In this document: positions 56,401 through 59,400 of the stretch, piece by piece | Numbering within the stretch: the first letter of the stretch is position 1 | Layout: every line of letters begins with the position of its first letter | Assembly (NCBI RefSeq): GCF_036588685.1 | Contig: NC_086382.1 | Location: forward strand, 44,665,552-44,729,551 | Reading direction: 5' to 3' | Length of the DNA stretch: 64,000 nt | DNA from: Mytilus trossulus | Taxonomy: Eukaryota | The notes under the pieces: generated by a model | Seen by the model: the letters and a program-made list of their open reading frames with translations, nothing else | Told to the model about the DNA's origin: nothing | Databases searched by the model: none | Translations under genes and position numbers: made by a program

Positions 56401-59400
56401 GGGGGGGTAGGAGGGGTCCTGATCCTGAAATCCCAAGCTTAAAAACACCAGATACCGGAGTCCCAATAAAGGTCCTAAACCCCCTCTTAATTGGTTAGGA
56501 TTGTAAGTTTTTCTAAGAAAGATTAGTGGTTTTCTTTGGCACTCCAGCTTCCTCCATCAATACAAAACTTACCACCATGAAAAAGCACACAAGGGATGGG
56601 GTTAAATGCCAATAAATCTTACAATTTTGCTATTAAAACAATTAGAAATGTTTGACTGAATTTGATCTTTTGATCTTTTTTTTTATATCTTGCTTTGGAG
56701 TCATCTTCTTTCTTCTCCTTGTTTTATCTCTAAAAGAATGTGAACCAAGCTAAAAACAGATAACCACTTTCCCCAACCTTCCATTCACATTTATTTTTTT
56801 GCAAATCAGTTCAAATTATAAAATATCAACTTTTAGTGTTGTAAATTTTGCATAAATAAATGTTTTAATATTCTACTTTCTGAATAATTTAATACTTACT
56901 TGCTTTGGCTGGCTATTGCACCAGGTAAATCATTTTCCTTTCTTTTCTTCTGTTTAAGTTTATCTTTCTTTCTTTCTCTCTAAAATTGTACAAAATAAAT
57001 GTTTGTTTATACTTCACAGGAGAAAATATTAGAAAAAAACATCAAGTGACATGGGTAAGTGTTTTGGCCCATTGCATTGAAAATACTACTGGTTAAATTT
57101 GTTTCTGTATGTTGTTTTTAGACTTTGTAGTTAGTGGGCGTATGAAAATGATAAATTTAGCAAGGTTTCCTTTTACAAAGGGACATAACTCCTGATGGTG
57201 AAAGTGACACCACTCAATTTAAAGTTGATATGTATTTGGTGGTAATAAGCATTGTTTATTAGTTTCATAACATTTGGCTATGGTGAAGTAAAGTAAGAGT
57301 GTGGAAAAAAGCAAAAGTGATATTGATGCTATCCAAATTTGGACTTGATCTGTGTTTGGAGGTTATAAGCTTTAGCAGCCAATAGCAGCCAATGTCAATA
57401 TCAAGGGAAATTGGTGCCTAGGAAATATAAATTTCATCATTACAACAAGTGTATAACAATATTTCTCCACTCCTGAGTCCTTACAGTTAAATTTTAATAT
57501 TTAAAGTGTGTGTCATGCAGAGCTTTTTAAATACTTAGAATTCAACTGTTAAGAGTGGAGTTATGCCATATTACAAGAGCTTTAGTGGGCGAATCTATTT
57601 CTCTAATGATTTTTATCCTTACTTTTCAATGATTTGCAAAAAGTTCTGTTTTTTATATGTGATGTCATCAGGCATGGTGGCCTTTTTTCATGACAGAACA
57701 ATTGGAAATTGAGAAAAAAATCAAGAAATTTAAACATCATAATTGAATTTCGACCAATCATTTGCTGAGATCAGATATTTCACTAGCAAGGAGACTTATT
57801 TTTCTCACACTGCTCAGGAAATGTGAAACTAGCACAAAAATTATAAAAAGTAAATGACTTACAGCCTCAGCGTCATCTCTTCTTTCTCCATCTAGATTCT
57901 GTTGTCTTAATCTTTTAAAGTTAATATCTTTTGGCTTAAAAACTTCTTCAGATGTGTCATGGAAACCTGTCAAAATTAAATGGAATTTTGTGAGAATAAA
58001 AAAGAATATTGGAAAGATGTACATCAGATAACAGTCCATTCAATATACTTGAGACAATTTTGTATTATGACATAATTGAATTTAACATACTGAGATGTAT
58101 TGCCTCTCCTTAGTTGTTATTAACTGATATGAAGTGATTAGCATTGGTTCTTTTCTACTTAAAACATATCAAACACTTCATTTTTTTATTAACTTGTGAA
58201 ATATTTTTTTTTGCTGTTAAAGCTGACTTTATGTCTATTGAAGAATTGACCAGTTAATGTTTTTCAAGAAATTAATCTGCAGTAGATGAACTATTAGTTT
58301 ACAGTATTCATAGAAGGCTGAAACTTGTGTAAGAGGGATGTGTAATTTTTTTTAGTTTCTTTTCTGATAACAGTTGTACACAAATGTATAATACCAGTTA
58401 AATGAGACTGCTTTATAGCAACGGACTGCTTCATACACCCTAAATACATTTATCTATTTTTCATTCCTATAAAATTATAATAAATATAACTTTTTTTCTA
58501 AATTCATGCTCTTTTTTCAAAATTACGACAAATAATGTATTTCAAATTTTGTTTCCAGTGATTTCTATGTTGAATGTTTGTTTATATAGTACAAGTATGA
58601 CAAACCTGGCGCTGGTTTCTTTTCAAATGATTTCTATGACAAATGTTTGATTATATAATACAAGTATGACAAACCTGGGGCTGGTTTCTTTTCAAACGGA
58701 ATTTCTGCATTGTAATCTACTCCTCTCTTTTTCTTCTTATGTTTCTTAATACTGAAATATAAACCAAATGAAACATATGAATTGTTTTAAACATGAAATG
58801 CACATGGAGTTATCACTTCTGTTTATTAACCCTTTAGGAAGATCAGACACATCTAAAATGCTTTTTAAAGCTGACTATACAGTATGGGTTTTACTCATTG
58901 CTGAAGGCTGTACAGTGAGCTATATGTTTTAATTTCTGTGTTATTTTGTCTTTTATGGAGAGCTATTTCATCAACAAACATACAACATCTTCTTTTTCTT
59001 AATATAAACATTTAATCCACATTAAATTTTCACTTTTGCTAATGATCACTATTCACATTTTCAACTTTTCCCTCATATTTTGTTACACTCTTGACTTTTA
59101 CTTTGGAAATAAATACAAAATCCTAACAGGGGAACAAATAACAACTAGTTACGAAGAGTCATACACCTTTTTTTCATATCAAACATTCTATTTAAACAAT
59201 AACACATATAACAGTTTCAAATTTTATCTGTGTCAATAAATATGGCATGAAAATACTTACTCTATTCCTGCTGCTCGTAATTCTCTTCTCTTTTGTAATG
59301 CTGCTAACCTCCTGGTAAAAACAACCAATTTAGAAAATTTAAATATTGAATTAAAATATGGCTGTTCAAACAAGAATGACATACCCTACTGGTAAAGCAT

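What the first reader, a model, noticed from the sequence alone, without database searches (positions are those of the whole stretch)
58559..58696. Third junction duplication, this time in CDC5L: the exon 3' end plus gtttgt donor is duplicated (2 x 69 bp)
A different gene shows the same event type. The exon end encoding FEKKPAPG, plus about 40 nt of intron, is tandemly repeated, creating a second caggtttgtc cryptic donor about 69 nt into the intron. Three independent exon-end-plus-donor tandem duplications within 40 kb suggest a mechanism rather than chance. Possible mechanisms are replication slippage at a recurring motif, or a preference in some duplication process. The three duplicated segments share no obvious sequence with one another.
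Basis: seen in the sequence. Interest (0 to 1): 0.6.

Follow-up and report, generated by a model that had tools for sequence, protein, structure and literature searches.

The report
Duplicated splice donor in CDC5L intron
A 69-base piece covering the end of a CDC5L exon and the start of its intron has been copied once in tandem, leaving a spare and probably unused splice signal inside the intron; boundary-spanning repeats like this are already known from the human F7 gene and from amphioxus, and this one looks like an ordinary, tolerated slippage product.

Summary
On the minus strand, a 77-nt CDC5L exon (58751-58675, ...[18 protein letters not shown]) ends at CAG|GTTTGT. Its last 22 nt plus the first 47 nt of the intron (58696-58628) are repeated head-to-tail (58627-58559) with 63/69 identity. 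This places an identical CAG|GTTTGT pseudo-donor 69 nt into the intron.

Only the upstream donor gives the conserved protein. Using the copy would add 69 nt carrying an in-frame TAG.

The junction between the copies is a hybrid of two short imperfect direct repeats (AGAAAT..TTTGAAAAG in the exon, AGAAATCACTGGAAAC in the intron). That is the signature of slipped-strand or unequal exchange.

The two other junction repeats, both in MVP, are also real: 47 nt x 27 copies and 73 nt x 2.2 copies. The three units are unrelated in sequence.

The claim of "a mechanism rather than chance" is weak:
- About 2% of intragenic positions in the window are the first copy of a local repeat, so 3 of 39 donors gives P = 0.02-0.05, uncorrected and post hoc.
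- In 52 exon ends from related species, donors carry copies at the background rate.
- Acceptors carry none.

The kind is known (human F7 IVS7 VNTR, amphioxus "mirages"). Low interest.

The parts
58675..58751 (-). CDC5L exon (77 nt) encoding [25 protein letters not shown](G). Acceptor tttatatttcag|TATTAAG. Last base is the G of CAG, at 58675.
   Evidence: Colinear with human CDC5L residues ~196-223.
58673..58674 (-). [quoted passage not shown]
   Evidence: Joining this donor to the acceptor at 57966 gives ...[15 protein letters not shown]..., matching human ...FEKKPALGFYDTSEE....
58628..58696 (-). Repeat copy 1: the last 22 nt of the exon (58696-58675) plus the first 47 nt of the intron (58674-58628).
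58559..58627 (-). Repeat copy 2, wholly intronic and 63/69 identical to copy 1. It carries an identical CAG|GTTTGTCAT pseudo-donor.
58604..58605 (-). GT of the pseudo-5' splice site. Using it would add 69 nt that contain an in-frame TAG ([13 protein letters not shown] stop).
   Evidence: Reading frame worked out.
58697..58706 (-). Left half of exonic direct repeat R1 (AGAAATTCCG), immediately upstream of copy 1. Together with the start of copy 1 (TTTGAAAAG) it resembles the intronic R2.
   Evidence: Boundary contexts printed.
58544..58566 (-). Intronic direct repeat R2 (AGAAATCA|CTGGAAACAAAAT): the end of copy 2 plus the partial third copy that TRF extends into (to 58552). The copy1/copy2 junction AGAAATCA|TTTGAAAAG is R2-like on the left and R1-like on the right.
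57967..58674 (-). The 708-nt intron that contains the extra copy.
57863..57966 (-). Next CDC5L exon, (G)[34 protein letters not shown]. Acceptor ttttgacag|GTTTCC, donor GCT|GTAAGT.
24398..25671 (-). Companion event 1 (MVP): a 47-nt x 27.1 minisatellite. Its first unit is the end of exon ...[11 protein letters not shown] plus GTAAGTC (exon 25728-25628).
23694..23853 (-). Companion event 2 (MVP): a 73-nt x 2.2 repeat, 67/73 identical. Its first unit is the end of exon ...[19 protein letters not shown] plus the donor GTAA (exon 24011-23785).

Best explanation
This is a lineage-specific, selectively neutral tandem duplication.

How it arose (inferred from the sequence): two short imperfect direct repeats lay 69 nt apart, one in the exon (AGAAATTCCGTTTGAAAAG) and one in the intron (AGAAATCACTGGAAAC). 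During replication or recombination they mispaired, and the 69 nt between them were copied once. Because one repeat lay in the exon and the other in the intron, the unit happens to include the 5' splice site.

Why it is tolerated (inferred): the spliceosome uses the first, authentic donor, and the copy is a silent pseudo-site inside the 708-nt intron. If the copy were used, the mRNA would carry a premature stop.

How the cluster arises: the two MVP events arose in the same general way, at different unrelated repeats. The local cluster of three reflects a genome in which small tandem repeats form very often within genes. Donor-side junction duplications survive, while acceptor-side and exon-internal ones are removed.
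For: Shown:
- The repeat is real and unique at its lag.
- The three boundary contexts are atgcAGAAATtccg|TTTGAAAAG, tcatAGAAATca|TTTGAAAAG and acatAGAAATca|CTGGAAACA. The middle junction is therefore an R2/R1 hybrid.
- The 73-nt MVP repeat shows the same pattern: GTCAAGCTAAAGC / GTCAAACCAAAGC / GTCAAACACAAGC.
- Only donor 1 restores the conserved CDC5L sequence.
- Read-through from each of the three authentic donors hits a stop within 0-13 codons.
- The three units are unrelated.
- Within the window, 3/39 donors and 0/39 acceptors have a local copy.
- The background 'first copy of a local repeat' is 2.1% of intragenic positions in the window and 4.3-6.5% in relatives, and donors in relatives sit at that background.
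- A related species' copy of the same intron is full of other, unrelated tandem arrays (L005).

From the literature:
- In human F7, a 37-bp VNTR whose first unit spans the exon 7-IVS7 boundary leaves identical pseudo-5' sites silent, because the most upstream site is selected (PMC1557585).
- Amphioxus 'mirages' do not disturb splicing (PMC3087553; PMC3902484).
Against: - No transcript data are available, so silence of the pseudo-donor is inferred, not shown.
- Counted by event rather than by position, 3 of the 7 local-repeat events in the two genes span a donor, and a possible fourth starts at one (the 31-nt array at 29243). That is more than a uniform placement of small units predicts: my rough hand estimate, not a tool result, is about 0.2-0.6 expected.
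- The same two MVP junctions carry copies in other species (L003/L004, L011, L013/L014). This could mean junction-specific hot spots.
- The flanking microhomology is imperfect: a 6-nt exact core, roughly 12/17 matches overall by my count.
Confidence: 0.72

Rival explanations
1. Junction-directed process. Tandem repeats are seeded preferentially at 5' splice sites in this lineage, as a mollusc counterpart of amphioxus 'mirages'. The cause would be something about the donor region: its consensus supplying microhomology with AT-rich coding sequence, or transcription- or splicing-linked DNA damage.
For: - 3 of 39 donors against a 1.6-2.1% background in the window (P 0.024-0.048).
- 3-4 of 7 local-repeat events are donor-anchored.
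- In two of the three events, one of the mispairing repeats lies in the donor itself (AAAGTAAGTC; GTAAGTCAAAC).
- The same junctions are hit in several species. ESEIE: the window and L003, with different unit borders, while the closer relative L002 lacks it. ISTK: the window, L011 and L013.
- Amphioxus authors regard mirages as a possibly general phenomenon of unclear mechanism.
Against: - In the independent sample of 52 exon ends from relatives, donors carry copies at the background rate.
- The window was selected because it looked unusual, so its P value is post hoc.
- The CDC5L event does not involve the donor sequence in its microhomology.
- The donor/acceptor asymmetry is explained by selection alone.
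Confidence: 0.2
2. Functional pseudo-donor. The extra 5' splice-site copies are kept because they bind U1 snRNP, for example to protect AT-rich introns from premature polyadenylation, or to divert some transcripts into nonsense-mediated decay.
For: - The 9-mer CAGGTTTGT is identical in both copies, and there is no mismatch in the stretch of 20 positions around the pseudo-donor, from 4 nt upstream of it to 16 nt downstream.
- The MVP array holds 27 near-consensus donors.
- The U1 'telescripting' idea is from my own knowledge and was not tested here.
Against: - With only 6 mismatches in 69 nt, conservation of the donor copy is not distinguishable from chance.
- The copies are absent from the closest relatives at the MVP junctions (L002), so there is no conservation across species.
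- The F7 work shows that such sites can simply be silent.
Confidence: 0.04
3. Assembly artefact: the second copy is a stutter, or two alleles stitched in tandem.
For: No independent assembly or reads of this species could be found. The exact-protein look-up failed, and the best database hits are from other species.
Against: - The copies differ at 6 of 69 positions and are exactly in register, with a hybrid junction and a partial third copy. Stutter would give identical copies.
- Comparable junction repeats occur in independent assemblies of related species.
Confidence: 0.03
4. Alternative 5' splice site that yields a longer CDC5L isoform.
For: The insert is 69 nt, a multiple of three, and the donor copy is intact.
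Against: The added sequence has an in-frame TAG at its 14th codon. The region is strongly conserved in human CDC5L with no insertion.
Confidence: 0.01

Closest known systems
Human F7 intron 7 37-bp VNTR (Borensztajn et al. 2006, PMC1557585)
   Same: A tandem repeat whose first unit spans the exon-intron boundary, so the authentic donor is followed by sequence-identical pseudo-5' splice sites in the intron. Those sites stay silent because the most upstream one is chosen.
   Different: F7 is a multi-copy polymorphic minisatellite in a mammal, and its splicing was tested experimentally. The CDC5L case has only 2.1 copies, a 69-nt unit and no expression data. The 47-nt x 27 MVP array in the same window is the closer match.
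Amphioxus 'mirages': minisatellite-like duplications of exon-intron boundaries in Adh3, globins BflGb6/9, TnC and PGBD5 (PMC3087553; PMC3902484; Canestro et al. 2002 as cited there)
   Same: - Tandem units of 10-160 bp that include a splice site.
- Several genes are affected.
- The repeats are reported not to disturb splicing.
- The mechanism is described as unclear.
- Copies are 81-100% identical.
   Different: - Mirages affect both 5' and 3' boundaries. Here only donor-side junctions are hit: 0 of 91 acceptors.
- The phylum differs. This window looks like a bivalve mollusc, which is my inference only.
- Length polymorphism and somatic instability could not be tested here.
Intron gain by tandem duplication (Rogers 1989 model; potato RdRp case, PMC4974935; Gao & Lynch 2009 as cited there)
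   Same: An internal gene duplication that crosses an exon-intron boundary and duplicates splice signals.
   Different: No new intron is created here. The copy lies inside a pre-existing intron, and the exon structure is unchanged.

Membership tests
Junction-spanning tandem repeat / 'mirage' (F7 IVS7 type) | The first repeat unit spans an exon-intron boundary. | tested here: met
   Copy 1 is 22 nt of exon plus 47 nt of intron.
Junction-spanning tandem repeat / 'mirage' (F7 IVS7 type) | Downstream units carry copies of the splice-site sequence (pseudo-sites). | tested here: met
   An identical CAGGTTTGTCAT at 58608-58597.
Junction-spanning tandem repeat / 'mirage' (F7 IVS7 type) | The pseudo-sites are silent and the normal mRNA is made from the authentic site. 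| not testable with these tools
   Indirect only: donor 1 alone gives the conserved protein, and donor 2 gives a premature stop.
Junction-spanning tandem repeat / 'mirage' (F7 IVS7 type) | Minisatellite behaviour: several copies and length polymorphism. | tested here: inconclusive
   Only 2.1 copies at CDC5L, and polymorphism cannot be tested. The MVP companion array has 27 copies.
Intron gain by tandem duplication (Rogers model) | The duplication creates a new intron that is absent from relatives. | tested here: not met
   The intron and its acceptor are present in a related species (L005). The extra copy lies within the intron.
Alternative 5' splice site producing a coding isoform | An open reading frame is maintained through the extension. 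| tested here: not met
   In-frame TAG at the 14th codon after donor 1.
Transposon-borne satellite array | The unit is unrelated to the host gene and has copies elsewhere. | tested here: not met
   The unit contains conserved CDC5L coding sequence, and lag-69 matching is confined to this one place in the window.

The most novel reading that the evidence does not exclude
Exon-end-plus-donor minisatellites ('mirages') are a general and mutationally favoured feature of genes in this (probably bivalve) lineage. They would be seeded because the 5' splice-site consensus repeatedly supplies microhomology with AT-rich coding sequence. This would make donor junctions recurrent hot spots, as hinted by the same two MVP junctions being hit in several species.
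Probability: 0.15. Interest if true: 0.5.

Novelty: new member of a known kind. Interest (0 to 1): 0.25.

Why it matters
It matters little on its own. It is one more example of a duplicated 5' splice site that the spliceosome evidently ignores.

Together with the 27-copy MVP array next door, it gives a natural test case for how the first of many identical donors is chosen. That question was addressed experimentally for human F7.

It also extends boundary-spanning repeats, so far described mainly in amphioxus, to another animal lineage. If a genome-wide count showed a real excess at donors, it would point to a mutational link between splice-site sequence and minisatellite birth.

Tried and rejected
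- **Same species elsewhere.** An exact look-up of a window ORF found nothing, and the best protein hits are from other species. The duplication could therefore not be checked in an independent assembly.
- **The CDC5L junction in relatives.** L006/L007 lack this intron altogether. L009/L010 do not reach the exon. L005 (954 bp) stops short of the junction.
- **A shared motif among the three units.** None found.
- **Acceptor-side duplications.** None in the window or in relatives.
- **The 17-nt repeat at 30830-30867** is a weak in-exon similarity, not a junction duplication. The 31-nt pair at 37671-37732 is purely intronic.
- **The L001 array at 2038-2310** starts 24 nt after a CDC5L donor and does not include it.
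- **The organism.** Literature searches for the ApaI-type 161-bp satellite gave nothing usable.
- **Papers not held.** Gao & Lynch 2009 and Canestro et al. 2002 are not in the library and are cited only through papers that quote them.

Full report
**What is there**

The window is AT-rich (GC about 31%) and carries two intron-rich animal genes on the minus strand.

- Major vault protein (MVP): exons from about 43263 to 20854.
- CDC5L: exons from about 62656 to 47401.

Gene identity rests on database results:
- Pfam Myb domains for CDC5L, and Vault and MVP_shoulder domains for MVP.
- Source names 'CDC5/CEF1' and 'major vault protein' on homologues.
- A residue-by-residue match to human CDC5L chain 5mqf_L.

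**The flagged repeat**

Tandem Repeats Finder gives 58552-58696, period 69, 2.1 copies, 89% matches. The repeat finder finds the same pair.

On the gene strand, a 77-nt exon (58751-58675) encodes [25 protein letters not shown](G) and ends CAG|GTTTGTCAT.
- Copy 1 (58696-58628) is the last 22 nt of the exon plus the first 47 nt of the intron.
- Copy 2 (58627-58559) follows directly and is 63/69 identical. One difference lies in the exon-derived part and five in the intron-derived part.

Across the window, matches at lag 69 average 20 +/- 4, and no other place reaches 50.

**Which donor is real**

Joining the upstream donor to the acceptor at 57966 gives ...[31 protein letters not shown].... This aligns without a gap to human ...[31 protein letters not shown]....

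Using the copy would add 69 nt that read [13 protein letters not shown] and then TAG. The second site is therefore a pseudo-site. If it were used, the transcript would carry a premature stop.

The same holds for both MVP repeats, where read-through meets a stop within 0-6 codons.

**How it arose**

The three unit borders read:
- atgcAGAAATtccg|TTTGAAAAG (start of copy 1)
- tcatAGAAATca|TTTGAAAAG (start of copy 2)
- acatAGAAATca|CTGGAAACA (after copy 2)

Before the duplication there was an exonic motif, AGAAATTCCGTTTGAAAAG, and a similar intronic motif, AGAAATCACTGGAAAC, 69 nt downstream. The junction between the copies is like the intronic motif on its left and like the exonic motif on its right. 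That is what slipped-strand mispairing or unequal exchange between two short imperfect direct repeats produces.

The 73-nt MVP repeat shows the same hybrid pattern: GTCAAGCTAAAGC / GTCAAACCAAAGC / GTCAAACACAAGC.

This step is inferred from sequence. It is the ordinary route to tandem duplications and needs nothing specific to splice sites.

**The two companion events**

Both are real.
- MVP exon 25728-25628 ends ...[11 protein letters not shown]|GTAAGTC. Its last ~40 nt plus the donor form a 47-nt unit repeated 27 times (24398-25671).
- MVP exon 24011-23785 ends ...[12 protein letters not shown]|GTAAGTC. A 73-nt unit is repeated 2.2 times, 67/73 identical.

The three units share no sequence.

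A fourth array lies at 28983-29225 (31 nt x 7.9). In my scan, its first-copy cluster starts 7 nt after the last base (29250) of exon 29329-29250. The array may be an old, degraded junction repeat, but the support is weak (shuffle p = 0.026).

**Is three in one window more than chance?**

*Within the window*
- 3 of 39 donor junction segments have a strong copy in the next 700 nt (scores 31-54, others 11 or less).
- 0 of 39 acceptor segments have one upstream.
- As a control, I scanned every fifth position of both genes and counted 57-mers that have a downstream copy but no upstream one, that is, first copies of local repeats. These are 2.1% of positions, or 1.6% without the three junction clusters.
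- That gives P(3 or more of 39) = 0.048 or 0.024. This is uncorrected, and the window was picked because it looked odd.
- Counted by event, the picture looks stronger. Of seven local-repeat events, three span a donor and one abuts a donor. Of the remaining three, two are a transposon-like satellite and one is a (CAAT)n tract.

*Independent sample*
- I fetched loci from related species through exon-sized ORF proteins.
- In 52 exon ends from ten loci, 2 have a strong local copy: L003/L004 at the ESEIE junction, and L010 at the CDC5L exon for residues ~470-520. That compares with a background of 4.3%.
- At a looser threshold 4 have a copy (adding L011 and L013/L014 at the ISTK junction), against a background of 6.5%.
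- Exon ends in these loci were projected from tblastn matches, so they are approximate.
- Donors in relatives are therefore at the background rate. No acceptor has a copy, where I would expect about 3-4 from that background. By my own arithmetic from the rates, the probability of none is about 0.03 in relatives and about 0.01 with the window included.

*Reading*
- These genomes make small tandem repeats inside genes at a high rate. A related species' copy of this very intron contains three unrelated arrays in 954 bp.
- Duplications that cover a donor are tolerated, and those that cover an acceptor are not.
- That asymmetry fits what is known of splice-site choice. The first of several identical 5' sites is used (PMC1557585). 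From general knowledge, a duplicated 3' site placed upstream would be met first.

**Recurrence at the MVP junctions**

This is the best argument for hot spots.
- ESEIE junction: L003/L004 carry three to four copies with different unit borders (about 86 nt, reaching about 40 nt into the intron). The closer relative L002 and also L008 have none. This favours independent events.
- ISTK junction: L013/L014 and L011 carry diverged copies of the exon end just inside the intron (0 of 2000 shuffles reach the score). L002, L003 and L008 show no copy. L012 scores only 10.5, below both thresholds.
- At the ISTK junction, the coding sequence (ACAAAGTC in relatives, TAAGTAAATC in the window) resembles the donor ACAAAG|TAAGTC 47 nt downstream. 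A conserved pair of direct repeats would explain the recurrence locally.
- None of this applies to the CDC5L event, whose intronic partner motif lies 47 nt into the intron.

**Comparison with what is known**

Boundary-spanning tandem repeats are already described.
- The human F7 gene has a 37-bp VNTR whose first unit spans the exon 7-IVS7 boundary. Its identical pseudo-5' sites are functional in principle but silent, because selection starts from the most upstream site (PMC1557585).
- In amphioxus, minisatellite-like duplications of exon-intron boundaries were named 'mirages'. They have been reported in Adh3, globins, TnC, PGBD5 and other genes. They do not disturb splicing, their mechanism is called unclear, and they have been proposed as raw material for new introns (PMC3087553; PMC3902484).
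- Duplications crossing an intron-exon boundary can also create introns (potato RdRp, PMC4974935). That has not happened here: the intron pre-exists, and the copy sits inside it.

**Verdict**

The events are real, independent in sequence, and slippage-type. A junction-directed mechanism is not established.
- I rate this a new member of a known kind, of low interest on its own.
- The most novel reading not excluded is that donor junctions are true hot spots for minisatellite birth in this lineage. I give that about 15%.

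Noticed in passing
window 24398-25671 (minus strand; MVP exon 25728-25628): A 47-nt x 27-copy minisatellite (93% matches). Its first unit is the end of an MVP exon (...[11 protein letters not shown]) plus the donor GTAAGTC, so 26 further near-consensus 5' splice sites follow the authentic one. Any use of them gives an immediate stop codon.
   Followed up: partly
L013/L014 8700-8810; L011 8540-8710: Diverged copies of the same MVP ISTK exon end lie just inside the intron in two more distant species (0/2000 shuffles reach the score). 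The closer relatives L002 and L003 lack them. This is either recurrent or ancient duplication at this junction. The coding motif ACAAAGTC and the donor ACAAAG|TAAGTC form a conserved direct repeat 47 nt apart.
   Followed up: partly
window 23694-23853; L003 1193-1463 (= L004 718-989): The MVP ESEIE exon end plus donor is duplicated in the window (73 nt x 2.2). Apparently independently, with other unit borders (86/67-nt periods, 3-4 copies), it is also duplicated in a related species.
   Followed up: partly
window 28983-29225: A 31-nt x 7.9 array (74-80% matches) lies just downstream of the donor of MVP exon 29329-29250. The exon end plus donor aligns weakly to the unit (shuffle p = 0.026), so this may be a degraded fourth junction repeat.
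   Followed up: partly
L010 5690-5740 and 6040-6095: In another species, the end of the CDC5L exon for residues ~470-520 plus its donor region has a diverged copy about 355 nt into the intron. The copy's GT has changed to AT, and a palindromic MITE-like insert (about 5820-5870) lies between the two.
   Followed up: no
window 39212-40361: Two adjoining satellite-like arrays sit in an MVP intron: a 135/261-nt unit, then a 161-nt unit x 3.9 that contains GGGCCC (ApaI) sites. From memory this resembles the ApaI satellites or MITE-borne repeats of Mytilus mussels, which would make the window a mytilid genome. I could not verify this.
   Followed up: partly
window 11098-11797: A 263-nt unit x 2.7 at 99% identity, outside the two annotated genes. 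A very recent tandem duplication of unknown content.
   Followed up: no
L006 9074-10830; L007: CDC5L in two ENA metagenome contigs has several exons fused that are separated by introns in the window, including the FEKKPAPG|FHDTSEE junction. This is an intron-poor relative or a different organism.
   Followed up: no
L005 1-460 and 788-954: A related species' copy of the intron that holds the CDC5L duplication, and of the next intron, contains three unrelated tandem arrays (68 nt x 4.2, 27 nt x 4.9, 29 nt x 5.8) within 954 bp. Minisatellite turnover in these introns is very fast.
   Followed up: no
window 43067-43082 and 44003-44023: A G16 run and a C21 run in the MVP 5' / MVP-CDC5L intergenic region.
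   Followed up: no
window 16981-17202 (+): An ORF reading WLGSTDVVNGDWRWIYDQTQLSYKNFVSGHP, which looks like a C-type lectin exon. This suggests a third gene on the plus strand upstream of MVP.
   Followed up: no
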